Shown: one piece after another, positions 2,263-57,682 of the stretch
Layout of the letters: every line of letters starts with the position of its first letter
Position numbering within the stretch: position 1 is the stretch's first letter
NCBI GenBank assembly: GCA_038253825.1
Contig: JBBSGT010000003.1
Coordinates: forward strand, 463-64,462
Reading direction: 5' to 3'
Length of the DNA: 64,000 bases
Source: Candidatus Levyibacteriota bacterium
GTDB taxonomy: Bacteria > Patescibacteriota > Microgenomatia > Levybacterales > UBA12049
Made by a program: the position numbers and the translations under genes
The notes under the pieces: model-generated
Seen by the model: the letters and a program-made list of their open reading frames with translations, nothing else
What the model was told of the DNA's origin: nothing
Database searches by the model: none

Positions 2263-3744
2263 ATGTTTACGAGAGCTCATCTTCGCGTATTAGCTTCTAA
2301 GAACGTCCTGCCTATAACCGCAATTGTCCTAATTGCTGCTGTTATCCGACTATTCGATTTTCCGCATGGGTATGGGTTTGATCCTGACGCTACTCGTGAT
2401 GCTATCATTGCATTTGAGGGAGCGAGTCATCCTTATTTTCCACTTGCCGGCGCCTTCTCATCTACTGGGCCGTTTACCTTTGGGCCATGGTATTACTTGA
2501 GTTTGATAATGGTGGAGTTCTTATTCAAAACTCCTTTCGCGCCATGGTTGCTGATGACAGCCGCGACACTGATAACCGTCGTCGCAATGTACGATATAGG
2601 AAGGCTCGTTGAATCCAGAGCACTGGGCTATGTGCTTGCCGGTTTCGCAGCATTAGCCCCATCTGAGTTTGTCGCAAGCGGATCGCTTTCCAACTTATCT
2701 CCCGTCACACTATTTGCTGCCCTCACGTTGTGGTCGAGTACTCGCATCCTCACTACCATGAGACCAGGTGTGTGGTGGTATTTCGTTCTCGGTGCATCTC
2801 TTGGACTTGGCATTAATGCACACTACCAAATGGCTGGACTTTTGATAGTACCGGTTCTTGTGTGGTTCTTCTCTTCTTCTCGAAAAGTACAGACGGCTCT
2901 GGCGGTTATGTTGGGAGTATTCCTTACATTCATACCGTTACTCATTTTTAACATATCGCATGACTGGCATACGCTTCGGGGAGTTGTCGAAATGTATGCT
3001 TCACGCGATCGCATCTATGTACCAAATAGTTGGAAGATCTATTTGGGTACGTTTTGGCCGTCATTGATACAGTTCATCTTTGGAACGCCGATATTGGTGA
3101 GTGCTGCACTGCTTTTGATTGTGCCTGCGGTGTTGTGCTTTGAAGCTTTTCGTAAATTGTTGCCACGTACTGTGTGGATACTGGCAATTGTTGTTTTTTT
3201 GAACATAATTCAGCTGCGGTATTATTGGGGAGAGCGCTACTTTCCGTATCATTACTATCTCGAACCGTTTCTCCTGTTTCTTGTGGGTTATGTCGTGTAT
3301 CGACTTGCCTCGATCATGCGATATGGCGTTGTCTTTAGTCTCCTGATTGGCCTATCAATCGGGTTCAGTATGGTTGTATTTGATTACAACCGCGATCGCT
3401 CATTCATTCTGGCTCCGGACCAGACCTTGCATGTAGTTGCGGCTTTGCAGGCTAATTATCCAGATAATCCGATAGAAGTGTATAAGTGTGATGGAGACAG
3501 GGGGTGGATAGCTGAGGCGACTACATACGTGATGCAATTTGAGAAAAAACCTAAATCAGGTCGTCCGGTTAAGCTAGGTATGATAGATGCAATCTGTAGT
3601 TATCCTTTAGATCAGCATGGAAGAAAAGTAGTAGGCACGCCGTTTGTTGATCTTTCTCTTGCATCCGAGAATGCGCTTAAGCAAGCTTCTTGGAGTGCGG
3701 TTACGACTGAGGGAGTATTTAAAAAATCAGCAAAATGGTACTGA
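2263..3744 (+). CDS. ArnT/PMT-like (GT-C) polytopic membrane glycosyltransferase, compositionally atypical (GC-richer)
   Basis: 493 aa, many TM segments, acidic motif in the first loop (FDPDATRD), large hydrophilic C-terminal domain. Codon usage is visibly GC-richer than the neighbours. Confidence 0.45.
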   Translation: MFTRAHLRVLASKNVLPITAIVLIAAVIRLFDFPHGYGFDPDATRDAIIAFEGASHPYFPLAGAFSSTGPFTFGPWYYLSLIMVEFLFKTPFAPWLLMTAATLITVVAMYDIGRLVESRALGYVLAGFAALAPSEFVASGSLSNLSPVTLFAALTLWSSTRILTTMRPGVWWYFVLGASLGLGINAHYQMAGLLIVPVLVWFFSSSRKVQTALAVMLGVFLTFIPLLIFNISHDWHTLRGVVEMYASRDRIYVPNSWKIYLGTFWPSLIQFIFGTPILVSAALLLIVPAVLCFEAFRKLLPRTVWILAIVVFLNIIQLRYYWGERYFPYHYYLEPFLLFLVGYVVYRLASIMRYGVVFSLLIGLSIGFSMVVFDYNRDRSFILAPDQTLHVVAALQANYPDNPIEVYKCDGDRGWIAEATTYVMQFEKKPKSGRPVKLGMIDAICSYPLDQHGRKVVGTPFVDLSLASENALKQASWSAVTTEGVFKKSAKWY

Positions 3745-3854
3745 CGATCTGAGCTATCGTAATGCATTTTACATAGCATGAGCTTACATAAAAAGTATCA
3801 GTTACTTTCTTCACTCCATTGCTGAGAAAGCAAACTTTTGAGTATAATAGTATT

Positions 3855-5420
3855 ATGAATAAGTTTACAAAATACTTAGGGTTGTTTATTGTTTTGGCAA
3901 TATTTTATTTTGTTCTGCGGCTTTATCATCTCACGAACCTACCGATTTTTACTGACGAGTCAATCTATATCCGATGGGCACAAATTGGCCTGGGCGATCC
4001 CATGTATCGATTCCTTTCTCTTACTGATGGCAAGCAACCGCTTTTCATTTGGATTATGTATCCATTCCTCAAGATTTTTCACGATCCTCTTGTAGGTGGA
4101 AGAATGGTGTCTGTTTTTACAGGTTTTTTCACGATGCTCGGATTAGGTTTGGTGAGTTTTACTTTATTCAAAAAAAGATCATGGGCGCTTTTCACAATGG
4201 CGCTCTACATTGCATATCCGTTTGCTCAAGTCATGGACCGTATGGCTCTTTATGACAGTATGGTAGCGATGTTCTTTATCTGGTCAGTTTATGCCTCACT
4301 GATGCTCATTAAATCTATGCGTTTAACAGATGCATACAATTTGGGATTTATTTTAGGAGCAGAAAATCTCACTAAGCTTCCTGTTTTTTTCAGTATCCTG
4401 TTACTTCCTATAACCTTGATACTTTTTGATTTTCGTCAAAAACATTGGAGAAGGGAATTACTGAAATGGTTCGGTTTTACTGCTCTAAGCGTTGTTATTT
4501 CACAAGTAATGTATTTCGTTGTTAAGTTGTCACCGCTCCCAAACGTTACTAATGAAAAAAATAATACCTTTTATTACCCAATTTCAGAATGGATTCATCA
4601 TCCTTTTCAATTTTTCATTGGCAATTTCCAAGGTATGACGGCATCTCTTTTGGGATATCTAACAATTCCATATATTTTGTTGGTACTCGTGGCACTTTTT
4701 TATCTCAAGAAAAATTTTAAAGAGAAGGTAATGTTGCTCATATATTTTCTTCTTCCCTATATTGGTTTTGCTTTAATAGGGAAGGAGATTTTTGCTCGGT
4801 ATGTCTTTTTTATGAGTTTGCCCTTGATACTCTTGGCAGGGTGGGGCTTAGGATATCTCATTGATTTGATTATCAAATACTGGCATATAAAAGCTCAAAT
4901 GCGTTTTGTTACAGCGGGATTTATTGCAATTATCTTTTTACTTTATCCTTTATATGTTTGTTTAAGTTTTGCGGCAAACCCAATAGCTGCACCAATTCCA
5001 CAGTCCGATAAGACTCAATATGTTACAGCATGGACAAGTGGTTGGGGATTGAAAGATGCTGTTACCTATCTTCAAAATCAAGCGCAAAGTGGACCAATTT
5101 ATGTAGCAACTGAAGGAACCTTCGGACTTTATCCACAAGGGATAGAATTATATCTATCTAAAAATCCAAATGTTTCAATTAAAGGATATTATTGGGAAAT
5201 AACAAAAGATTTTCCTAAAGATTTAGTAGAAAAAGCAAAGACAATGCCCACATACTTTATCTTCTATCAACCATGCCCTGGAGGCTTTTGTGACCGACCC
5301 GGTGATGCGCCCGCAGGATGGCCTGTGAGAGTTGTGCAGACATATACTCATCCAAACACCCAAACACGAGTTGTCATCTATCAAGTGGAAGAAGGTACGC
5401 TGAATGAAAACATTAAATAG
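3855..5420 (+). CDS. PMT_2/ArnT-like (GT39/GT83-type) membrane glycosyltransferase
   Basis: Conserved DE motif in the first extracytoplasmic loop (LPIFTDESIYIRWAQ), then more than 10 TM segments and a soluble C-terminal domain. The probable ATG is at 3855; the ORF track starts at a TTG at 3819. A TATAAT lies at 3843-3848. Confidence 0.55.
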   Translation: MNKFTKYLGLFIVLAIFYFVLRLYHLTNLPIFTDESIYIRWAQIGLGDPMYRFLSLTDGKQPLFIWIMYPFLKIFHDPLVGGRMVSVFTGFFTMLGLGLVSFTLFKKRSWALFTMALYIAYPFAQVMDRMALYDSMVAMFFIWSVYASLMLIKSMRLTDAYNLGFILGAENLTKLPVFFSILLLPITLILFDFRQKHWRRELLKWFGFTALSVVISQVMYFVVKLSPLPNVTNEKNNTFYYPISEWIHHPFQFFIGNFQGMTASLLGYLTIPYILLVLVALFYLKKNFKEKVMLLIYFLLPYIGFALIGKEIFARYVFFMSLPLILLAGWGLGYLIDLIIKYWHIKAQMRFVTAGFIAIIFLLYPLYVCLSFAANPIAAPIPQSDKTQYVTAWTSGWGLKDAVTYLQNQAQSGPIYVATEGTFGLYPQGIELYLSKNPNVSIKGYYWEITKDFPKDLVEKAKTMPTYFIFYQPCPGGFCDRPGDAPAGWPVRVVQTYTHPNTQTRVVIYQVEEGTLNENIK

Positions 5421-7131
5421 GTTACTTCCCACATTGGTTGTTATTGCATTCTGTTATTGGTCGATAGCACCTCTCTTCCATCCTGGCTTTTTCCCCATCC
5501 ACGACGGTGAACAAGTAGGGAGATTACACGAATTACATCTTGATGTTGTTTCTGGACAATTGCCACCACGGCTTTCGCAGAATTTAGGCTATGGATATGA
5601 TTATCCATTATTTAATTTTTATCCTTCTTTTGTTTATTACATCGCAGAGGTCTATCATTTGCTCGGGTTTTCCTATATCTCTTCAATAAAAATCATGATA
5701 GCAACAGGTTTTCTTCTTGCAGCTATTGGTATGTACTGGCTTTCAAGATATTATTTCGGCAGATTAGCTGGGGTGATTTCTGCGGTTCTTTATACATATG
5801 CGTCATATCATAGTGTGGATGTTTATGTTCGCGGAGCACTGCCGGAATTTTGGTCATTTGTCTTTTTCCCTTTCATCTTTCTCGGTTTTACAAAAATAGC
5901 AGAAAAACCTCGAACATTATGGACGATAGTCACAGGTGTTTTGCTGGCATGTTTTGTTTTAACCCACAATCTTATCGCAATGATGAGTTCACCGTTCATC
6001 TTAGGATTTCTGATTTATCTTGTAATGATAACAAAGGAGAAAAAACAGTTTATTCATTCAGTACTTATTTCTGGCACACTTGGTGTTTTGTTATCTGCTT
6101 ATTTTTGGTTGCCTTCGCTGGCAGAGAAGCATAATACAATGGTAAATTTGTTGACAAAAGAATTAGCAGATTATTCACTGTATTTTGTCTATCCTATACA
6201 ATTTTGGCATTCCCCTTGGGGCTATGGCGGGTCAGTTCCGGGTATGGGGGATGGTATTTCATTCCAAATTGGGAAGGTATACTTTCTTAGCATCATTGCT
6301 GTTTTTGTTTATGCACTATTTTTATTTAAAAAGTATAGAAAGACCGCAGTTCTTCTATTTCTTCTCATCTTCCTTTTTGTCTTCTCATTATTTATGCAAA
6401 TCTCTGCATCAAAGTTTATTTGGGATACCCTGAGGTCTGTAATGGCATATATCCAATTTCCATGGCGATTCCTTGAAATTAGCTTCTTCCTCTCGTCATT
6501 TGCTATAGGAGCACTCTTCATTACCCCTTTTCCTTTTCTCAATAAAAAGTGGGTTCTTTATTTGCAGTATATATTGGGTATCGTGATGATCGCGTTCGTT
6601 TTGTATAAAGGTGTAACAATTTTTAATCCATCAAAATATCTTACCAATGTAACTGATCAAGATTATGTCAGTGAAAGTGTTATGCGATGGGACACAAGCA
6701 ATTTATCTTTTGAATATGTACCAAATGGGATATCGACAAGAAAATCACCTCATGGAAATACTATAGTAAATATCACTAAGGATCAAATAGCCAAAAGTCC
6801 ATTTTCTTCTATTACCGGAAATATGAATATTCAAGTGAAAAAAGATATCCCTCAGCAAAAAACTGCGTTTGTTTCAGTTAAATCAAATGGTATACTACAA
6901 ATCAATGTATACGATTTTCCCGGATGGCATGTCTCTATCGATAGTAAAGAAGTCTCTTATTCTTCAAAGAATGCATTGAAATTGTTGCGGGTTCCTATAG
7001 GCCGAGGAATGCATACAGTCACTGCAGTATTTAAAGACACAACAGTCCGAAGTATAGGAAATGCATTGTCGGGGATAACAATGTTTTGCATTGTTATCTT
7101 TCTTATTGTCCGTTTGCGTAAAGTGAAATGA
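5404..7131 (+). CDS. YfhO-like large GT-C-type membrane protein (member of a paralogous family in this window)
   Basis: 575 aa. N-terminal multi-TM region with a HDGE loop, a C-terminal extracytoplasmic segment 'DFPGWHVSIDSKEVSY...GRGMHTVTAVF' resembling the conserved YfhO-family C-terminus, and a final TM helix. Confidence 0.45.
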   Translation: MKTLNRLLPTLVVIAFCYWSIAPLFHPGFFPIHDGEQVGRLHELHLDVVSGQLPPRLSQNLGYGYDYPLFNFYPSFVYYIAEVYHLLGFSYISSIKIMIATGFLLAAIGMYWLSRYYFGRLAGVISAVLYTYASYHSVDVYVRGALPEFWSFVFFPFIFLGFTKIAEKPRTLWTIVTGVLLACFVLTHNLIAMMSSPFILGFLIYLVMITKEKKQFIHSVLISGTLGVLLSAYFWLPSLAEKHNTMVNLLTKELADYSLYFVYPIQFWHSPWGYGGSVPGMGDGISFQIGKVYFLSIIAVFVYALFLFKKYRKTAVLLFLLIFLFVFSLFMQISASKFIWDTLRSVMAYIQFPWRFLEISFFLSSFAIGALFITPFPFLNKKWVLYLQYILGIVMIAFVLYKGVTIFNPSKYLTNVTDQDYVSESVMRWDTSNLSFEYVPNGISTRKSPHGNTIVNITKDQIAKSPFSSITGNMNIQVKKDIPQQKTAFVSVKSNGILQINVYDFPGWHVSIDSKEVSYSSKNALKLLRVPIGRGMHTVTAVFKDTTVRSIGNALSGITMFCIVIFLIVRLRKVK

Positions 7132-52379: not shown

Positions 52380-52877
52380 GTGTCTTTTCAGAAAGTTCTT
52401 GTCCGAGCGGGAATTGCACTAGGTGTAGTTCTCTCAGCAGTCTTACTGTTGTTTTTCATCGCCCCTCAAGGTGAGGCTGTAACTGTGAGCAATCAGCAAT
52501 ACAGTATTAATGTCTCAGCAACGAGTGGATGGCAAGGAGCAATACTCATTCCTGCGGGGTTCCGTTATTCAATTTCTGCACCACAAAGTGGTCAGTATTG
52601 GACGGTCGATTACAGATCCCTCGGGAAGACAGCAGCATTCGGGTATCCTGAAGGACAGGTTTGGGGAGGTAATCCTTCATGCAAGTACGCACAGGGGGAT
52701 CCCTATGCGATGTTGTTGGTCAAGTTCAACGGTGATGTACAACGCTACGATGATTTCGATGGTTTGTCCTCATCGTTTGACCGAGTCGTGTCGTTCCGCA
52801 TCAACGATGCCAACAACTGTCTGGAAGACAACGCAGGAGCACTTCCTGTCACCGTTACGGTAACCCCAGCTGGTTAA
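52380..52877 (+). CDS. Secreted small protein (Sec signal peptide), possible PA-IL/LecA-like lectin fold (tentative)
   Basis: GTG start preceded by GGAGGT. Signal peptide 'MSFQKVLVRAGIALGVVLSAVLLLFFIAPQGEA'. 165 aa, GC-richer. The mature part shows loose similarity in pattern to the LecA galactophilic lectin (SGW..G, C..A.G...LLVKFNG, FRINDANN...GALPVTVTV). Confidence 0.45.
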   Translation: MSFQKVLVRAGIALGVVLSAVLLLFFIAPQGEAVTVSNQQYSINVSATSGWQGAILIPAGFRYSISAPQSGQYWTVDYRSLGKTAAFGYPEGQVWGGNPSCKYAQGDPYAMLLVKFNGDVQRYDDFDGLSSSFDRVVSFRINDANNCLEDNAGALPVTVTVTPAG

Positions 52878-52956
52878 AATACCAGACGCATGCGCAACAG
52901 TTAGGAGGTTTCTGACCTTACCAATTTCTCTCACCTTTGGGGGTGATGTGTAAAAA

Positions 52957-53011
52957 GCGGGTAGGTTATCTACTATTGTCTCACAAAGACAAAAATTTAT
53001 AACCTACCCGC
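52957..53011. terminator. Bidirectional rho-independent terminator between convergent genes
   Basis: Perfect 13-bp inverted repeat GCGGGTAGGTTAT...ATAACCTACCCGC (52957-52969 and 52999-53011) with a 29-nt loop that itself contains a TGTCT/AGACA inverted pair. On the minus strand a T-run (revcomp of aaaa 52953-52956) follows the stem. Confidence 0.55.
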
Positions 53012-53030
53012 CCACACACTTTAAAAAAAT

Positions 53031-53669
53031 TTAATGGAATCCGAACATGCCGATTAAGGCTTTGAGGAAAAGAAGAAGAAGCGTTAAGATACTTGTCGCA
53101 TTACTAGTGGATCCACTACTAGGAGTAAGCGAGAGATTTGGAATTATAGGGGAAGGTGATGCTGCAATTGACGCCCCAGGTGAAATACATGAAGCCCCCA
53201 GACATTGTGGACTCGGCACAACAGTCACGGTAGGAGATGGTGATGGTACTTTTGTGGCAATTGGAGCAGGTGAAGTAGCAGGCGCAGGACTTGTCGTCGT
53301 ATTTGTCGTATTGGTAGTCGTGTTTGTCGCAGTTGCTGAACAAATATCACCGACATAGTTTGGATCTAAATAGGTTGTTGCGCCACTTGTATGAGAAGAC
53401 GGTACGACAGACGTAACATCACTTCCACATGGATGCCCCTGATGAGGTGAGCCTCGACTTCCTTTTTCGTAGATTTTATTACTTAGAATATAGAGACAAC
53501 GGGTGTCAGATGAGACTTGCGCCTTTGAAAGGCAGGTTTGTCCGTTGGCATGATATTGCACCACATAGAAGATGACAATATTAACTAAAAAGAGTAAAAC
53601 CCAAATATGAAGACCGTATTCAAATAATACTTTTTTCAATGATACTTTTTTTGCTTTTATTTTTGTCAT
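53031..53669 (-). CDS. Membrane-anchored surface protein, paralog A: N-terminal TM, conserved Cys/His module, C-terminal Thr/Ser/Pro-rich tail
   Basis: 212 aa. The first 130 aa are nearly collinear with the N-terminus of 55144..57015 (FEYGLH.W...CLYIL..K.YEKG.R..PHQGHPCG.DVTSV.P.SHT...YL.PNY.GD.CS). The tail is low-complexity TTTNTTNTTTSPAPATSPAP. Confidence 0.6.
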   Translation of the reverse strand: MTKIKAKKVSLKKVLFEYGLHIWVLLFLVNIVIFYVVQYHANGQTCLSKAQVSSDTRCLYILSNKIYEKGSRGSPHQGHPCGSDVTSVVPSSHTSGATTYLDPNYVGDICSATATNTTTNTTNTTTSPAPATSPAPIATKVPSPSPTVTVVPSPQCLGASCISPGASIAASPSPIIPNLSLTPSSGSTSNATSILTLLLLFLKALIGMFGFH

Positions 53670-53748
53670 TTATGCGTTAACCCCACAATTATAATTAAAG
53701 TAACTATTACAGCAAAAAGCAAGAGCGTAATGGCAACTATTTTATTTA

Positions 53749-55047
53749 TCATATCGAAAATTCCTCAGAATGTATACTGCGATCCTTTACTTTTAATTTT
53801 TTCAACTGGTTTTTCATACTTTTCATCATTGGTGGCGGGCCACAAAGAAAGAAATCATACTTTGTCATATCCCCGACAGTCTGAGCTATTGTATCTGCTG
53901 AAAGCCGTCCCTGGGTTTTGGTGTAAAAAGGAATTATTTGTAAGTTCGGATTAACCTGATTAAATTGTACCAAATTTTCCAGATATGCTGCATCATCTTG
54001 GGTTCTGACTGAATAATAAAGGAAGATATGATATTGTGGATCAGTAAGATTTTGCGCCATGCTCAAAAATGGCACGATGCCAATACCTCCTGCTATCCAA
54101 ACCTGGTTAAGATTTTTGTATAACGCATAGTTAAATCTTCCAAACCCTCCTTCAATGACAGCGATATCTCCCACCTGAATATTTGCGAGTGTTTTAGTGT
54201 AATCACCTTCAGCTTTTGCGGAGATCGTTATACTTCCATCAGGAGCGACCGAGCTAACAGAAAAAGGGTGCGTTTCATTGGATACGGATTGGGATTTGAA
54301 GAAAAGATAAATAAATTGTCCTGAAATAACTTTTATGGCTTTATTAAGAGGCGTCATTGCTATTTCTGTGACATTTGATTTCACCAGCGTAACATTACTC
54401 ACGCTATATTTGGTTCTCCGGACTAAAAATCTTCCACCAATGGTTCTATAGAGATAGGCAACAGTGCCAATGCCGACAATGAACAACATATAGTCTTGAA
54501 GTGGTTTAAATCGAGCAATATCACTGGATACATAAAATCCATGGATCGAACCGATGAGAAATACTGCACCCAAAAATTTATGGGTAAAGCGCCAAATGTG
54601 ATAAGGAATCTTGATAAAAAAAGTCAAAACCAATAGTGAAATCATTAACAGTAATCCCGTTAAGCCAAAATTTATTGACCAATCCGGCCCAGGTAACAAA
54701 AATAACGCGGCAGTATTCCATGAAATAGTAATGCGGCTAAAAGCTAAGAGGAGAGGATGGATAAGCAGGAAAATAAATGAGATACCACCAAGCAGGTGAT
54801 GGGCAATATACACTTTGTTCATACCACCGAAAAAATCTTCAAAAACTTCCATGCGAGAACTCAGGACAAGCGAGAGAGAAAACATTGTTATTCCAACAAG
54901 TCCTGCCATTTCCCCAAAACTGATAAATGTGCCATACGCACTATAAAAACGATCTGATAAAGGAAGCAAGGCAAAATACCAGAACAGGAGAGGAGAAAAA
55001 GCTATCAATAGAAGAATTGGCCAGCCCAGTTTTCGTTTTAGTAACAT
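53749..55047 (-). CDS. NOX/FRE-type transmembrane flavocytochrome (ferric-reductase-like heme domain fused to FAD/NAD(P)H-binding FNR domain)
   Basis: Two bis-His pairs in TM helices (HHLLGGISFIFLLIHP and HKFLGAVFLIGSIHG), FAD motif HPFSVSS, NAD(P)H motif WIAGGIGIVPF and C-terminal CGPPPM. 432 aa, similar in size to compact bacterial NOX proteins. Confidence 0.75.
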   Translation of the reverse strand: MLLKRKLGWPILLLIAFSPLLFWYFALLPLSDRFYSAYGTFISFGEMAGLVGITMFSLSLVLSSRMEVFEDFFGGMNKVYIAHHLLGGISFIFLLIHPLLLAFSRITISWNTAALFLLPGPDWSINFGLTGLLLMISLLVLTFFIKIPYHIWRFTHKFLGAVFLIGSIHGFYVSSDIARFKPLQDYMLFIVGIGTVAYLYRTIGGRFLVRRTKYSVSNVTLVKSNVTEIAMTPLNKAIKVISGQFIYLFFKSQSVSNETHPFSVSSVAPDGSITISAKAEGDYTKTLANIQVGDIAVIEGGFGRFNYALYKNLNQVWIAGGIGIVPFLSMAQNLTDPQYHIFLYYSVRTQDDAAYLENLVQFNQVNPNLQIIPFYTKTQGRLSADTIAQTVGDMTKYDFFLCGPPPMMKSMKNQLKKLKVKDRSIHSEEFSI

Positions 55048-55143
55048 ACCTTTATTGTATGCAATTTATCGGTTCTCAGCAATTTCTTCATTTGTATATT
55101 CGACTTTCTTAATTCTTAGGCTATACTATAATTACGGGCTGTT

Positions 55144-57015
55144 ATGGCTAAAATAAGCAAACATCACAAAAAAAAGCTTACTAAAATCTTTTTTGAGTAT
55201 GGACTACATTTATGGATCGTAGTATTTATCATGAATGTGGCACTGTTTTATGCTGTAAATTTTTACAGTCTAGGAAAAACTTGTATTACTCCGCAACAAG
55301 TCCAATCCGATAATCGATGCCTTTACATCTTAAATGGAAAAGTCTATGAAAAAGGTACGCGTAATGATCCACATCAAGGTCATCCCTGCGGAACTGATGT
55401 CACGTCTGTGCTTCCTCCTTCACATACTAATAATCCGGCTATGTATCTCTTACCCAACTACATTGGAGATGTTTGTTCTGTTCAGCCAACGACTCCGCCA
55501 CCACCCCAACCGACTGCCAAACCAACCAACACTCCCCCCCCTCCTCCGACCCAAGTCCCGGCTCCAACTCGTCAGGCCCCGACGATTGCTATCCCGACTC
55601 CCACTTTTACTCCTACGCCTACGCCACGGCCCCAAGTTGTAGGAGTCACACCAGTATCGACTATAAAGGTTCCTACGCCCACAGTTGCTATTGTCGTAAC
55701 CCGGGCAATTACGCAACCATATACAGCTATTCCAACGAATGCACCATCTCCAACGGTCGCACCATTACTGGGGCCAGGAATCACATTTTCGTTTTCTTTG
55801 CCTGCTATCGGAATCGGCCCAGGTAAGACAACTCCTCTCCATACGACAAGAGCTGTTAATCTTAGTATCTATGATGCTGCAGTTAAGCTCTCGAATTTAA
55901 AATTTTTGCCAACATATACTGCAAGTGCCAGTGCGAACTATGATGCCAATTCCACAAGCGCTACCTATACGCAGTTTGTGGTACAAAGTGCTGATTTGGG
56001 AGCCAATGTTCCGGCTGGTTCCTACCATGTAGCATTTAAAACAAATCAGACGCCGCTTACCCTTATCAAACAAAATAAAACAGATGTACAAGGGACGCTC
56101 TTTCACGTAACTCCTGGTACCATTGCCGCCGAAAAACCCCAAGCAGCAGATATTTTGGTGGGGGATTTAAATGGGGATGATTCTATTACTATTCAGGATT
56201 ATAGTATATTTGTTGATTGCTTCGGTGATAAGTCTTCATCCTCCTCATGCCATGCGCCTAGTGCTGCAGACCTGAATGATGACGGATCAGTGGATGGAGT
56301 AGATTACAATCTTTTGCTCAAAAGTATCAGTATGGCATCTGGTGCCGTCGCGCAAGTACCAACACCAACTGTTCGGACACCGACACCACAGTTAAAGAGC
56401 CAACTCATCAGTACGCCCTCAGCGTCTTCAAGTGGGCTTTCTAAGACGTTACCATCGCCTGCTCCAATGAAGCAATTTGTGACACATCGGTCAGCACCGC
56501 CATCACTTTCTCCGACGACAACTCCAAATAAATCGCTTGTTGCTGATGCAACTATGCTTACATTGAGTAAAGTGCTTTCATACATAGCATTTGTAGTCTT
56601 GTTCGGTGTTGCGGTATTAGGAGCTTACAAAAGTCGGTTATTGAACTCATTCTTCCACCGGGGAGGAGATGCAAAACCTGCTGCACCCCAACCTCAGATG
56701 ACCGCACCAGCAGCACCTACGCAACAACCGCAGCCAGTTCCCGTTGAACAATCACCCGTAGTTCAGGCTCCGCCAGCAGAGAAAAAACAAATTTCAAAAG
56801 TATATTATATTACGAGTGGCACGACAACTCCGGTAAATGGACGCACGATACTGACACTTACTGATGATCAAGGAGCACATGTTGGTTACACGTTACAAAC
56901 TTCCCCGCAAGATGGTTATTATTCGGTAAGTGGTTTTGAGGAAGAAATAGATGGAGTTCCCAGTATTACTATTTTGACACTTACACCGGCTCTAAAACCT
57001 GGTACAAATTTATAA
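55144..57015 (+). CDS. Multidomain surface protein, paralog B: N-terminal TM plus Cys/His module, Pro-rich linkers, dockerin-like double Ca-binding loop, second TM, C-terminal domain
   Basis: The N-terminal 130 aa are paralogous to 53031..53669. 'TPPPPQPTAKPTNTPPPPPTQVPAPT' linkers. 'DLNGDDSITIQDY' and 'DLNDDGSVDGVDYNLLLKSI' fit the dockerin DxNxDGxxxxxD loop-helix repeat. TM 'YIAFVVLFGVAVLGAY'. A Pro/Gln-rich spacer, then a 100-aa C-terminal domain. Confidence 0.6.
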   Translation: MAKISKHHKKKLTKIFFEYGLHLWIVVFIMNVALFYAVNFYSLGKTCITPQQVQSDNRCLYILNGKVYEKGTRNDPHQGHPCGTDVTSVLPPSHTNNPAMYLLPNYIGDVCSVQPTTPPPPQPTAKPTNTPPPPPTQVPAPTRQAPTIAIPTPTFTPTPTPRPQVVGVTPVSTIKVPTPTVAIVVTRAITQPYTAIPTNAPSPTVAPLLGPGITFSFSLPAIGIGPGKTTPLHTTRAVNLSIYDAAVKLSNLKFLPTYTASASANYDANSTSATYTQFVVQSADLGANVPAGSYHVAFKTNQTPLTLIKQNKTDVQGTLFHVTPGTIAAEKPQAADILVGDLNGDDSITIQDYSIFVDCFGDKSSSSSCHAPSAADLNDDGSVDGVDYNLLLKSISMASGAVAQVPTPTVRTPTPQLKSQLISTPSASSSGLSKTLPSPAPMKQFVTHRSAPPSLSPTTTPNKSLVADATMLTLSKVLSYIAFVVLFGVAVLGAYKSRLLNSFFHRGGDAKPAAPQPQMTAPAAPTQQPQPVPVEQSPVVQAPPAEKKQISKVYYITSGTTTPVNGRTILTLTDDQGAHVGYTLQTSPQDGYYSVSGFEEEIDGVPSITILTLTPALKPGTNL

Positions 57016-57043: not shown

Positions 57044-57682
57044 TTGTACGATATTTATATGACTAGCTTAGCGCTCCTTTTTGGCCTCATTTGTCTTGTC
57101 CAATTAGTAATGATAATTTTATGGCGCAAACCTAAGAGACTTTTCAAAAACCAAAAGGCCAAGAAATCCGAAATAAGCCATGCCCACATCTTTTTATTTA
57201 TTGGCATGATTTTGTTATACATTCTCTTTTTTATTCAACTCTTTGATTATCACAAGCCACATCCGTTAGTCGACGCGCCTTATGTTCCTACCACCAACTA
57301 TCCTCCGCCTGCTCATAATGTTTTTTCACAACTTGGTGAAAGACAAACAGGTCCGATTGATGATCTGTATTTCCTTTATCTTTCTTCTGATAAATCTCAA
57401 GGGACAGTCACTCAGGTTGCGTGGGGATTGCGACAGGAATATTGTAAAAAACTCTGCATTATTAATCTTTATGATAATAAAACTGCCTTTGAGCGAGATT
57501 TAGAACGAGTGACGATAACAGATCAAGCAAAGATGAAAGAATGGAATAAACAAAACTATGTTTTTGTTGCTGATCATTATCTTGGTTATCTTGATGCGGT
57601 TCAAGATGCGTCTTTTAGCTATTATCCTTTCCATGACAGTTACTACAAACACGCCAAAGCAGGCACACTTACTGATTACTAA
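57044..57682 (+). CDS. Membrane-anchored hypothetical protein (2 TM plus extracytoplasmic domain)
   Basis: 212 aa, two N-terminal hydrophobic helices. No recognisable motif. Confidence 0.4.
   Translation: MYDIYMTSLALLFGLICLVQLVMIILWRKPKRLFKNQKAKKSEISHAHIFLFIGMILLYILFFIQLFDYHKPHPLVDAPYVPTTNYPPPAHNVFSQLGERQTGPIDDLYFLYLSSDKSQGTVTQVAWGLRQEYCKKLCIINLYDNKTAFERDLERVTITDQAKMKEWNKQNYVFVADHYLGYLDAVQDASFSYYPFHDSYYKHAKAGTLTDY

What the first reader, a model, noticed from the sequence alone, without database searches (positions are those of the whole stretch)
52380..57015. Candidate novel extracytoplasmic redox module: NOX/FRE-type flavocytochrome flanked by two inverted paralogous surface proteins sharing an undescribed Cys/His domain
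The minus-strand gene 53749..55047 has every hallmark of a NOX/ferric-reductase flavocytochrome, meaning it moves electrons from cytoplasmic NAD(P)H to the outside. It is bracketed by two genes (53031..53669 on the minus strand, 55144..57015 on the plus strand) whose first ~130 residues are collinear. That shared region has one TM anchor and then an extracytoplasmic segment with four conserved Cys and a strictly conserved 'PHQGHPCG(S/T)DVTSV' His/Cys cluster. I do not recognise this module as any described family. Its metal- or redox-cofactor-like residue pattern, and its position on both sides of a transmembrane electron donor, suggest it could be the extracellular acceptor or partner of the reductase. 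The larger paralog adds a dockerin-like module and Pro-rich stalks, consistent with display away from the membrane. A secreted lectin-like protein lies just upstream. The whole block is GC-richer than the glycosyltransferase genes on both sides.
Basis: partly seen in the sequence, partly recalled or inferred. Interest (0 to 1): 0.8.

Follow-up and report, generated by a model that had tools for sequence, protein, structure and literature searches.

The report
NOX reductase with cytochrome-b5-like surface partners
The "unknown Cys/His domain" on both sides of this bacterial NOX-type membrane reductase is a highly diverged, membrane-anchored cytochrome b5 (heme) domain that almost always sits next to, and once is fused to, such reductases, so it is probably the reductase's outside electron acceptor; a 2021 preprint already noted this kind of gene cluster in these ultra-small bacteria, without a function.

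Summary
A 432-aa NOX/FRE flavocytochrome (53749-55047, minus strand) has all the hallmark motifs. It is flanked by two genes whose first ~112 residues are 57% identical (E 8e-50).

The shared module is not a new fold. It is a TM helix followed by a divergent cytochrome b5 domain:
- AF2 model pLDDT 92.5.
- Pfam Cyt-b5 is the only hit, below threshold.

The two near-invariant His (H77, H94) align with the axial heme ligands of solved b5 and cytb5M proteins. The four invariant Cys probably form disulfides.

The partnership with NOX is strongly supported:
- NOX is adjacent in 17 of 21 module loci.
- 8 of 9 sampled NOX homologues have a confirmed b5-type gene adjacent or fused; the ninth is presumptive.
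- One contig encodes a single 754-aa module-linker-TM-NOX fusion.

A 2021 bioRxiv preprint already described CPR "pFre + atypical cytb5-like" clusters of unknown function. This is therefore a new 4-Cys variant of a known kind. New here are the ligand mapping, the fusion, and pairs in MAGs labelled Dehalococcoidia and Micrarchaeota.

The GC excess reflects Pro/Ala/Thr-rich linkers, not foreign origin. "Lectin-like" is untested.

The parts
53749..55047 (-). NOX/FRE-type flavocytochrome, 432 aa (SpNOX-like): 6-TM bis-heme ferric-reductase domain (aa 48-166, nt 54550-54906), FAD-binding domain (aa 214-289, nt 54181-54408), NAD(P)H-binding domain (aa 318-412, nt 53812-54096)
   Evidence: Pfam PF01794, PF08022 and PF00175 above cutoffs. 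His pairs H83/84-H97 and H156-H169, HPFS260, GGIGIVP320, CGP402. Full-length match to SpNOX 8qq7/8qt6, E ~1e-32.
53031..53669 (-). Small b5-module protein, 212 aa, 79 bp downstream of NOX on the same strand (probable NOX-b5 operon): K-rich cytoplasmic N-terminus, TM1, b5-like ectodomain, Thr/Pro/Ser-rich linker, C-terminal TM2
   Evidence: ORF. 57% identity to the large paralogue over 112 aa. Module HMM 121.7 bits. TM segments aa 19-37 and 193-211. The canonical NOX-adjacent b5 of L028 hits it directly, E 6.4e-4.
53334..53546 (-). Cytochrome b5-like ectodomain of the small paralogue (aa 42-112): C46, C58, H76, H79, C81, H93, C110
   Evidence: Alignments A1 and A2. Family conservation.
55144..57015 (+). 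Large b5-module protein, 623 aa, divergently transcribed from NOX: K-rich N-terminus, TM1, b5-like ectodomain, Pro-rich linker, beta-rich region, dockerin, Pro/Ser linker, TM2, ~128-aa cytoplasmic tail
   Evidence: ORF. Module HMM 123.2 bits. Dockerin. TM segments aa 15-33 and 477-495. Full-length homologue beside NOX in L014 (28% over 614 aa).
55267..55479 (+). Cytochrome b5-like ectodomain of the large paralogue (aa 42-112): predicted axial heme ligands H77 (nt 55372-55374) and H94 (nt 55423-55425), heme-contact H80, invariant C47, C59, C82, C111
55192..55266 (+). TM1 signal-anchor of the large paralogue (about aa 17-41), N-in/C-out by the positive-inside rule
   Evidence: AF2 helix 6-44. 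Hydropathy. Six Lys in aa 3-14 (sequence).
56161..56328 (+). Type I dockerin module (aa 340-395)
   Evidence: PF00404 E 1.2e-7 / 3.7e-8, above the gathering score. Dockerin tails recur on module proteins in L016-L018, L021-L023 and L030.
56572..56628 (+). TM2 of the large paralogue (aa 477-495), which returns the chain to the cytoplasm; followed by the cytoplasmic tail 56629-57012
   Evidence: Hydropathy 2.30. K/R directly after the helix (sequence). The same TM1-b5-linker-TM2 layout precedes NOX in the L032 fusion.
55048..55143 (.). 96-bp divergent intergenic region between the NOX and large-paralogue start codons (presumed shared promoter region)
   Evidence: Gene coordinates. Two sigma-70-like matches at 55073-55127, but the scan as a whole is at chance level. 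Inference only.
57044..57682 (+). 212-aa two-TM protein of unknown function, 28 bp downstream of the large paralogue; possibly an accessory of that paralogue, not of the core cassette
   Evidence: Homologue (37% identity) directly after the large-paralogue homologue in L014. A 205-aa no-Pfam gene holds the same position beside the 69%-identical NOX P0159. No Pfam family above threshold.

Best explanation
This is a minimal trans-membrane electron-export module of a CPR (Microgenomates-type) bacterium.

Proposed path:
1. The SpNOX-like flavocytochrome oxidises cytoplasmic NAD(P)H.
2. It passes electrons through FAD and two stacked b-hemes across the membrane.
3. The solvent-exposed outer heme reduces a membrane-anchored, extracytoplasmic cytochrome b5-like domain carried by the two flanking proteins. 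That domain is predicted to bind heme through H77 and H94, with H80 as a second-shell contact and two disulfides from the four invariant Cys.
4. The b5 domains sit about 5 residues above TM1, at the membrane surface, and would relay single electrons to an unidentified outside acceptor such as O2, Fe(III) or another metal, or a surface or host-borne redox protein.

The large paralogue also carries a dockerin, which could tether that acceptor or a partner surface.

Shown here: domain identities, the b5 fold, conservation of the ligand-equivalent His and the Cys, topology by the positive-inside rule, gene linkage in both directions, and a natural fusion.

Inferred: heme binding, direction of electron flow, disulfide pairing and the terminal acceptor.
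For: NOX identity and motifs.

Module is a b5 fold:
- Foldseek top 50 PDB hits are all cytochrome b5.
- Pfam Cyt-b5 is the sole hit (E 0.011, near full-length). 36 of 75 family members hit Cyt-b5 at E<=1, best 7.8e-5.

Ligands:
- The family profile aligns PH77QG-H80 with DH42QGmH46 of 6vz6. In that structure H42 and H61 are the axial ligands and H46 is a further heme contact (10.1101/2021.11.30.470528).
- Canonical NOX-adjacent b5s align co-linearly, with the HPGG His on H77, the second His on H94 and two Cys on C59/C82.
- Conservation fits: H77 96%, H94 96%, H80 69%, four Cys ~100%.

Linkage:
- NOX is adjacent in 17 of 21 module loci, about 10 non-redundant arrangements, at 41-84% NOX identity.
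- Usually there are two module genes per NOX.
- Other neighbours are unrelated housekeeping genes.
- Of 9 NOX homologues sampled on long contigs, 8 have a confirmed module or Pfam Cyt-b5 gene adjacent or fused, and the ninth (P0159, no DNA retrieved) is presumptive.
- L032 encodes one 754-aa ORF: TM, module, Pro/Thr linker, TM, full NOX.

Against: - Heme binding is not demonstrated. The window's modules score below Pfam's Cyt-b5 gathering threshold (16.2 vs 23.7 bits). HMM-only searches against PDB sequences fail.
- The segment between the first His and the G-x-D-x-T strand is shorter than in classical b5, though similar to cytb5M, so the pocket may differ.
- H80 is replaced by Asn in ~17% of members.
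- CPR bacteria are generally held to lack heme biosynthesis (general knowledge, not tested here), so three or more hemes per unit would have to be scavenged and a b-heme inserted outside the cell.
- L001 and L008 have module genes but no NOX within ~5 kb. A close relative (P0159 context) appears to have only one module gene.
- No terminal acceptor is identified.
- No complex model was computed, and coordinates of the AF2 models could not be inspected for His or Cys geometry.
Confidence: 0.6

Rival explanations
1. Heme or iron acquisition system. The surface b5-like domains capture or relay host-derived heme (hemophore or receptor-like, as MAPR/Dap1-type b5 relatives bind heme). The NOX/FRE acts as a ferric or ferric-heme reductase to release or import iron, as yeast FRE does in reductive iron uptake.
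For: The FRE family includes true ferric reductases (PMC3591440). The b5 fold binds heme. CPR organisms depend on scavenged cofactors (general knowledge). A dockerin could attach the protein to a host or partner surface. The preprint's authors also leave Fe3+, Cu and siderophores open as substrates.
Against: No transporter, NEAT or siderophore gene is conserved beside the cassette; the neighbours are unrelated housekeeping genes. Conserved hexacoordinate bis-His-equivalent ligands favour a fixed electron-transfer heme over a transferable one. SpNOX ferric reductase activity is very poor, kcat 0.05 s-1 (PMC11564096).
Confidence: 0.17
2. The NOX is a genuine O2 reductase (superoxide or H2O2 generation, or O2 scavenging in an anaerobe). 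The b5-like TM proteins are structural, maturation or regulatory subunits (p22phox-like) rather than electron acceptors.
For: SpNOX reduces O2 and is constitutively active (PMC5676040; PMC11564096). Both paralogues have two TM helices that could pack against the NOX TM domain. Two copies per NOX are typical.
Against: A purely structural subunit would not need the near-invariant heme-ligand-equivalent His pair and a conserved b5 fold. In non-CPR lineages the partner is a canonical Pfam Cyt-b5 with HPGG. SpNOX lacks the eukaryotic O2-binding site.
Confidence: 0.12
3. One reading: the module is a non-heme metal or redox-Cys domain (Cu, Zn, Fe or thiol-disulfide) that merely retains a b5-like scaffold.
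For: Four invariant Cys plus three His in ~65 residues. Sequence similarity to b5 is below Pfam's threshold. Some b5-fold proteins have lost heme binding (for example the HERC2 b5-like domain).
Against: The two best-conserved His fall on the axial-ligand positions of solved b5 and cytb5M structures. Two of the Cys (C59/C82 equivalents) are also present in canonical heme-binding bacterial b5s next to NOX and in 1cxy. H80 of the putative 'HxxH' is the least conserved His.
Confidence: 0.08
4. No functional link: the adjacency of NOX and the module genes is a lineage-specific accident of gene order.
For: L001 and L008 carry modules without NOX nearby.
Against: Linkage holds in both directions across 41-84% NOX identity, in different gene orders and strands, with non-conserved flanks, in three lineage labels, and as a fusion ORF.
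Confidence: 0.02

Closest known systems
CPR 'pFre / cytb5MY / cytb5-like type A and B (CBLA, CBLB)' gene cluster (bioRxiv 10.1101/2021.11.17.468889, section 3.5)
   Same: CPR genomes. A ferric-reductase-domain membrane protein sits next to (usually two) atypical, TM-anchored cytochrome b5-like proteins with 'barely detectable homology' to b5 and Pro-rich tails. A membrane complex of unknown function is proposed. Their CBLB2 (EKD84735) aligns co-linearly with this module, including CGTDMT against CGTDVT (11.5 bits).
   Different: - The window's 4-Cys 'RCLYI...PHxGHPCGxDVT' subfamily is absent from their sequence files.
- No cytb5MY-type gene and no response regulator were detected anywhere in the 64-kb window.
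- Dockerin and second-TM architectures, ligand mapping and the fusion are not described there.
- They report no pFre-b5 co-localisation outside CPR. Here, pairs appear on contigs labelled Dehalococcoidia and Micrarchaeota.
Streptococcus pneumoniae NOX (SpNOX; PDB 8qq7, 8qt6)
   Same: Same architecture (6-TM bis-heme FRD + FAD + NAD(P)H domains, ~400-430 aa, no regulatory domains). Full-length homology, E ~1e-32. An exposed outer heme able to reduce a protein acceptor directly.
   Different: SpNOX has no described b5 partner, and O2 is its assumed acceptor. The window's enzyme is only distantly related to SpNOX in sequence (116.8 bits over ~375 aligned residues) and is always sampled with a b5-type neighbour.
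Cytochrome b5 family: classical b5, prokaryotic b558 of Ectothiorhodospira vacuolata (1cxy), archaeal cytb5M (6vz6, 6nzx)
   Different: Below Pfam's threshold. Two extra invariant Cys at the domain termini. Always TM-anchored with the domain outside. Fused to Pro/Thr linkers, a dockerin and a second TM. Heme binding is untested.
MsrQ-MsrP (YedZ-YedY)
   Same: An FRD-superfamily bis-heme membrane protein hands electrons from its exposed outer heme to a dedicated extracytoplasmic redox protein encoded next to it. The analogy is drawn by the SpNOX authors.
   Different: MsrQ lacks the fused FAD/NAD(P)H dehydrogenase domain and draws on quinol or Fre. MsrP is a molybdoenzyme with a known substrate. 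Here the partner is a small heme carrier and the final substrate is unknown.
NADH-cytochrome b5 reductase / cytochrome b5 (and the fused Ncb5or)
   Same: An FNR-type FAD/NAD(P)H reductase delivers single electrons to a cytochrome b5. The NAD-binding domain also shows weak homology to b5 reductases (2eix, 7rom).
   Different: In eukaryotes both partners are on the same (cytosolic) side of the membrane. Here two transmembrane hemes are interposed and the b5 is on the opposite side.

Membership tests
[quoted passage not shown] | Characteristic alpha/beta b5 fold | tested here: met
[quoted passage not shown] | Sequence match at Pfam's gathering score (23.7 bits) | tested here: not met
   Large paralogue 16.2 bits, E 0.011, but covering positions 7-73 of 74. 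The small paralogue has no hit. 36 of 75 family members hit at E<=1, best 7.8e-5. It is a remote homologue, not a Pfam-annotatable member.
[quoted passage not shown] | Two axial His ligands at the HPGG-type and second-helix positions | tested here: met
   H77 and H94 (96% conserved each) align with H42/H61 of 6vz6 and with the HPGG and NHSS His of canonical NOX-adjacent b5s. This rests on alignment only; the geometry in the model could not be inspected.
[quoted passage not shown] | Binds b-type heme | not testable with these tools
   Needs spectroscopy of the purified ectodomain.
NOX/FRE flavocytochromes (FRD superfamily with fused FNR-like dehydrogenase; SpNOX-type) | Six-TM ferric-reductase domain with two His pairs (TM3 and TM5) for two b-hemes | tested here: met
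   PF01794 43 bits. H83/84-H97 (13/12 intervening residues) and H156-x12-H169.
NOX/FRE flavocytochromes (FRD superfamily with fused FNR-like dehydrogenase; SpNOX-type) | C-terminal FAD-binding (HPF[ST]) and NAD(P)H-binding (GxGxxP, CGP) domains | tested here: met
   PF08022 and PF00175 above cutoffs. HPFS260, GGIGIVP320, CGP402. Full-length alignment to SpNOX.
NOX/FRE flavocytochromes (FRD superfamily with fused FNR-like dehydrogenase; SpNOX-type) | Catalytic outcome: O2 reduced to superoxide (NOX) or Fe(III) reduced (FRE) | not testable with these tools
   Sequence cannot distinguish the two. The SpNOX literature itself questions O2 as the physiological acceptor.
CPR pFre-cytb5-like cluster (bioRxiv 10.1101/2021.11.17.468889) | Ferric-reductase-domain gene co-localised with TM-anchored atypical cytb5-like genes in a CPR genome | tested here: met
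   Window arrangement. Module relatives come from MAGs labelled Gottesmanbacteria, Shapirobacteria and Parcubacteria. Synteny.
CPR pFre-cytb5-like cluster (bioRxiv 10.1101/2021.11.17.468889) | Presence of a cytb5MY (MAPR-like Tyr-ligand) gene in the cluster | tested here: not met
   Only the two module genes match any b5-type query in the six-frame translation of the 64-kb window. These were single-sequence queries, so a very divergent copy could be missed.
CPR pFre-cytb5-like cluster (bioRxiv 10.1101/2021.11.17.468889) | Adjacent two-component signal-transduction system | tested here: not met
   No CheY-like receiver domain at E<=1 anywhere in the window. The neighbours are glycosyltransferases and a sugar kinase. 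A Trans_reg_C gene lies ~2.3 kb from NOX in the closest long relative.
CPR pFre-cytb5-like cluster (bioRxiv 10.1101/2021.11.17.468889) | b5-like proteins belong to their CBLA or CBLB classes | tested here: inconclusive
   Weak co-linear similarity to CBLB2 (11.5 bits) and CBLA (8.1 bits). The signature motifs GHPCG and RCLYI are absent from their supplementary sequences. Probably a separate 4-Cys subfamily nearest to CBLB.
Type I dockerin (PF00404) | Duplicated Ca-binding loop-helix motif scoring above the Pfam threshold | tested here: met
   32.3-33.9 bits against a cutoff of 22.9, aa 340-395, covering positions 2-56 of 57. A cohesin partner was not sought.

The most novel reading that the evidence does not exclude
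NOX plus an outward-facing, membrane-tethered cytochrome b5 is a widespread, so far unrecognised two-component 'electron export' chain of non-respiring, ultra-small prokaryotes (CPR bacteria, DPANN archaea) and some Chloroflexota. It would dump NAD(P)H-derived electrons onto external acceptors, possibly onto the host cell surface or minerals via the dockerin-bearing paralogue. That would give these fermentative symbionts a redox sink, and it would identify b5 as the long-sought physiological acceptor of prokaryotic NOX homologues.
Probability: 0.22. Interest if true: 0.8.

Novelty: new variant of a known kind. Interest (0 to 1): 0.5.

Why it matters
[quoted passage not shown] The SpNOX structure papers state that O2 may not be it.

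The results here make a specific hypothesis testable with simple biochemistry: NOX reduces an ecto-cytochrome b5. The supporting results are:
- A b5-type gene is adjacent or fused in 8 of 9 sampled homologues of this NOX clade, with the ninth presumptive.
- One organism fuses the two.
- The divergent CPR module keeps the b5 heme ligands.

For CPR and DPANN biology, the system would be one of very few membrane redox systems in organisms thought to lack electron-transport chains.

For annotation, about 176 clusters (at 50% identity) of 'hypothetical proteins' can be assigned a cytochrome b5-like fold.

The finding is not categorically new. The gene cluster type was noted in a 2021 preprint, and both domains belong to known superfamilies.

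Tried and rejected
- Single-sequence and profile HMM searches of the module against PDB sequences gave only chance hits: designed Kelch repeats and antibody light chains.
- hhalign of the family profiles against one bovine b5 sequence was uninformative, probability <1%. Homology became clear only from structure and from bridging sequences.
- The word-indexed protein search finds very few relatives, 1 and 6 hits, all unnamed. The exhaustive search was needed.
- The search for related loci with the 75-sequence alignment failed for lack of a conserved stretch. It was repeated with 12 close sequences.
- Horizontal transfer of the block was rejected, because GC3 matches the flanks.
- The promoter and terminator scan is at or near chance and was not used.
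- No Rfam families or tRNAs in the window.
- The 'lectin-like' ORF and the cytoplasmic tail of the large paralogue have no Pfam, NCBIfam or PDB match.
- A conserved third gene in the cassette was sought and not found. Neighbours in other loci are unrelated, for example AlaRS-like and DnaX-like.
- Ancient A/B paralogue subtypes were considered. A crude NJ tree shows a mix of recent and older duplications, so no firm two-subtype model follows.
- A disulfide in E. vacuolata b558 equivalent to C59-C82 is recalled from memory only. The library search did not retrieve the paper.

Full report
**1. What is in the sequence**

The 432-aa minus-strand protein (53749-55047) is a complete NOX/FRE-type flavocytochrome:
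- Pfam Ferric_reduct (5.5e-11), FAD_binding_8 (8e-11) and NAD_binding_1 (7.7e-12) are all above their curated cutoffs.
- It has the two His pairs that ligate the two transmembrane hemes (H83/84...H97 and H156-x12-H169), plus HPFS260, GGIGIVP320 and CGP402.
- Its nearest solved relative is the full-length Streptococcus pneumoniae NOX (8qq7/8qt6, E ~1e-32, residues 51-426).

The two flanking proteins are 212 aa (53031-53669, minus strand, 79 bp downstream of NOX on the same strand) and 623 aa (55144-57015, plus strand, divergent from NOX). They are 57% identical over their first 112 residues (E 8e-50). The large one carries a bona fide type I dockerin (aa 340-395) and long Pro-rich linkers.

**2. 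The shared module is a divergent cytochrome b5 domain**

An exhaustive HMMER search with a three-sequence profile found 176 representatives (clusters at 50% identity), 143 of them with E <= 1e-10. This is a real, moderately sized family. Public sources call its members 'hypothetical protein' with no Pfam domain.

Conservation across 152 aligned sequences (150 listed representatives plus the two window paralogues):

| Residue | Conservation |
|---|---|
| Four Cys | 146/147, 150/150, 149/149, 137/137 |
| H77 | 143/149 |
| H94 | 140/146 |
| H80 (the His of 'HPCG') | 103/149, Asn in 25 |

Evidence that the module is a b5 fold:
- Pfam's only match to the ectodomain is Cyt-b5 (PF00173). It is below threshold (E 0.011, 16.2 vs 23.7 bits) but spans positions 7-73 of the 74-position model.
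- 36 of 75 family members hit Cyt-b5 at E <= 1, best 7.8e-5.
- An AF2 model of TM plus domain (pLDDT 80.5) gave cytochrome b5 structures as all 50 top Foldseek PDB hits.

**3. The His/Cys cluster explained**

The solved archaeal cytb5M proteins use H42 and H61 as axial heme ligands, with H46 as an additional heme contact in 6NZX (10.1101/2021.11.30.470528). The family profile aligns 'PH77-Q-G-H80-P-C-G-T-D-V-T' with 'D-H42-Q-G-M-H46-E-G-G-I-D-L-T' of 6vz6.

Canonical, Pfam-positive b5 proteins encoded next to NOX homologues in other lineages have the pattern '...DCWIIISNKVYDVT..THPGG..YCGKDAT..NHSS..YVGDL'. They align co-linearly with the profile: the HPGG His falls on H77, the second His on H94, and their two Cys on C59 and C82. 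One of them hits the window's small paralogue directly (E 6.4e-4). The same Cys pair is seen in the alignment of the preprint's BLB2 protein to E. vacuolata b558 (1cxy).

H77 and H94 are therefore the predicted axial ligands and H80 a second-shell residue. This matches their conservation (96%, 96% and 69%).

The four Cys are most simply explained as two disulfides in an extracytoplasmic domain: C59-C82, and C47-C111 stapling the termini. This pairing is inference, because I could not inspect coordinates.

**4. Topology**

Both paralogues have a Lys-rich N-terminus, a TM helix, and then the b5 domain beginning about 5 residues later. A second TM helix lies near the C-terminus (aa 193-211 in the small paralogue, aa 477-495 in the large one). 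By the positive-inside rule the b5 domain is outside and held at the membrane surface. Only the linker and dockerin parts can project away from the cell.

**5. Linkage to NOX**

Starting from the module, genome and metagenome scans gave 21 true loci:
- A NOX homologue (41-84% identical) is adjacent in 17 of them, which collapse to about 10 non-redundant arrangements.
- Two contigs are too short to tell.
- Two loci (L001, L008) lack NOX within ~5 kb.

The usual unit is one NOX plus two module genes, in various orders: mod-NOX-mod in L003, L005, L006 and L030; NOX-mod-mod in L013 and L018; mod-mod-X-NOX in L019. All other neighbours are unrelated housekeeping genes.

Starting from NOX, the clade has at least 777 members. 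I sampled nine homologues on long contigs:

| NOX homologue (locus) | b5-type neighbour |
|---|---|
| P0184 (L025), P0189 (L026) | 4-Cys module gene directly after NOX |
| P0244 (L030) | 4-Cys module genes on both sides |
| P0249 (L031, Paceibacterota) | Pfam Cyt-b5 gene directly after NOX |
| P0243 (L028, 2.3-Mb contig), P0215 (L029, 'Dehalococcoidia bacterium') | Pfam Cyt-b5 gene after NOX, with the same RimM-NOX-Cytb5-HlyIII order |
| P0227 (L027, 'Micrarchaeota archaeon') | Pfam Cyt-b5 gene directly before NOX |
| P0159 (no DNA retrieved) | Presumptive: a 604-aa no-Pfam gene in the position of the large paralogue |
| P0236 (L032) | Fusion, see below |

In L032 a single uninterrupted 754-aa ORF (3461-5725) encodes a K-rich N-terminus, TM, 4-Cys module, ~200-aa Pro/Thr linker, an extra TM and then the complete NOX. 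The gene caller had started it at an internal ATG. This is exactly 'module protein (TM1-b5-linker-TM2)' joined to NOX, and it is strong independent evidence of functional coupling.

**6. Mechanism proposed**

The proposed path is cytoplasmic NAD(P)H, then FAD, inner heme, outer heme, ecto-b5 heme, and finally an unknown outside acceptor. The SpNOX cryo-EM paper supports the plausibility. The outer heme is strikingly solvent-exposed, cytochrome c is reduced directly under anaerobic conditions, no eukaryote-like O2 site exists, and the authors cannot exclude that O2 is not the physiological acceptor. They point to MsrQ-MsrP as an analogue (PMC11564096).

Rivals are listed separately with their evidence: heme or iron acquisition, a p22phox-like accessory role, and a non-heme metal or thiol domain. 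Heme binding, direction of electron flow and the terminal acceptor are not shown.

**7. What is already known**

bioRxiv 10.1101/2021.11.17.468889 (section 3.5) reports the following:
- In CPR genomes, putative ferric reductase (pFre) genes co-localise with cytb5MY genes, with two 'atypical cytb5-like' TM protein types (CBLA, CBLB; 'barely detectable homology') and with two-component systems.
- 185 of 1427 pFre-containing CPR genomes have a PF00173 gene within 10 kb.
- No such co-localisation was seen outside CPR.
- The function is unknown.

Their supplementary sequences lack this module's signature (GHPCG, RCLYI). Their CBLB2 does align weakly and co-linearly with it (11.5 bits). The window has no cytb5MY-type gene and no receiver domain. 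No later paper on the cluster was found, and the bacterial NOX and FRD-superfamily papers do not mention b5 partners.

The finding is therefore a new sequence variant (a 4-Cys, Pfam-invisible subfamily, often with a dockerin and a second TM) of a known kind of cluster. What appears to be new here:
- the ligand mapping;
- the bidirectional linkage statistics;
- the fusion;
- the occurrence of NOX-b5 pairs on contigs labelled Dehalococcoidia and Micrarchaeota. MAG labels were not independently verified, although one pair lies on a 2.3-Mb contig, too large for a CPR genome.

**8. Peripheral claims**

- The block's GC (0.425 vs 0.38) is raised by GC1/GC2 of Pro/Ala/Thr-rich linkers (linker GC 0.56). 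NOX (0.383), the b5 modules (0.36-0.38) and GC3 (0.30-0.35) match the flanks, so nothing suggests foreign origin. Only the 165-aa ORF has raised GC3 (0.446).
- That 165-aa ORF has a signal-anchor-like N-terminus but no family match, and a homologue only in the closest relative L012. 'Lectin-like' is untested, and the ORF is not part of the conserved cassette.
- The 212-aa ORF at 57044-57682 follows the large paralogue's homologue in L014, and probably also in the P0159 context.

**9. Verdict**

It is a new variant of a known kind, of moderate interest (0.5), because it turns the open question of the bacterial NOX acceptor into a directly testable hypothesis.

Noticed in passing
L032:3461-5725 (+) (contig Ga0438288_0000024, 174 kb): A single 754-aa ORF fuses TM + 4-Cys b5 module + ~200-aa Pro/Thr linker + an extra TM to a complete NOX. 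Public gene calling starts at an internal ATG (574 aa, P0236; 4 member sequences on 5 contigs).
   Followed up: yes
L028:4001-6454, L029:3544-6017, L027:3648-5308, L031:4001-5685: NOX homologues outside the 4-Cys lineage are paired with canonical Pfam Cyt-b5 genes. The order RimM-NOX-Cytb5(TM-anchored)-HlyIII occurs on a 2.3-Mb contig and on a contig labelled 'Dehalococcoidia bacterium'. Cytb5-NOX occurs on a contig labelled 'Micrarchaeota archaeon'. This contradicts the preprint's statement that pFre-b5 co-localisation is CPR-only. The taxon labels were not verified.
   Followed up: partly
window 57044-57682 (+): A 212-aa two-TM protein of unknown function lies 28 bp after the large paralogue. 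A 37%-identical homologue holds the same position in L014, and a 205-aa no-Pfam gene does so beside the 69%-identical NOX P0159. It may be an accessory of the large paralogue.
   Followed up: partly
window 52380-52877 (+): A 165-aa secreted or anchored protein with the highest GC3 in the neighbourhood (0.446 vs 0.27-0.37). It has no Pfam, NCBIfam or PDB match and a homologue only in L012. Any resemblance to PA-IL/LecA-type lectins is from memory only.
   Followed up: partly
L001:5234-6579 compared with L006:3855-6513: L001 is syntenic with L006 (same flanking 189-, 325-, 125- and 221-aa genes) and keeps both module genes back to back, but the NOX gene between them is missing. This is either NOX loss or relocation.
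   Followed up: partly
L008:5398-7188 (+): A 596-aa protein in a Shapirobacteria MAG carries two tandem b5 modules (aa 197-263 and 323-388) and has no NOX within ~5 kb. P0026 (596 aa) in the representative search shows the same double-domain layout.
   Followed up: no
L030:3387-3995; L016-L018 and L021-L023 (module genes); window 56161-56328: Dockerin modules are repeatedly attached to b5-module proteins in different lineages. No cohesin partner was looked for.
   Followed up: no
L001, L004, L005, L006, L007 (record titles): Several MAG records titled 'uncultured Gammaproteobacteria bacterium' carry this CPR-type cassette with low-GC, CPR-like neighbours. The taxonomic labels are probably wrong.
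   Followed up: no
L032:7204-8001 (-): A DsbA/thioredoxin-like gene lies ~1.5 kb from the module-NOX fusion. It could be relevant to disulfide formation in the 4-Cys ectodomain.
   Followed up: no
L019:6531-7205 (+): In the Gottesmanbacteria locus, a 224-aa protein sits between the two module genes and NOX. It has a signal or TM segment, a Cys-rich FN3-like segment, a Pro-rich linker and a C-terminal TM.
   Followed up: no
window 1-64000: No tRNA or Rfam family anywhere in 64 kb. GC is uneven: 0.28-0.32 at 31-40 kb and 0.42 at 2-4 kb, against a window mean of 0.357. The finding lies in a glycosyltransferase-rich region.
   Followed up: no
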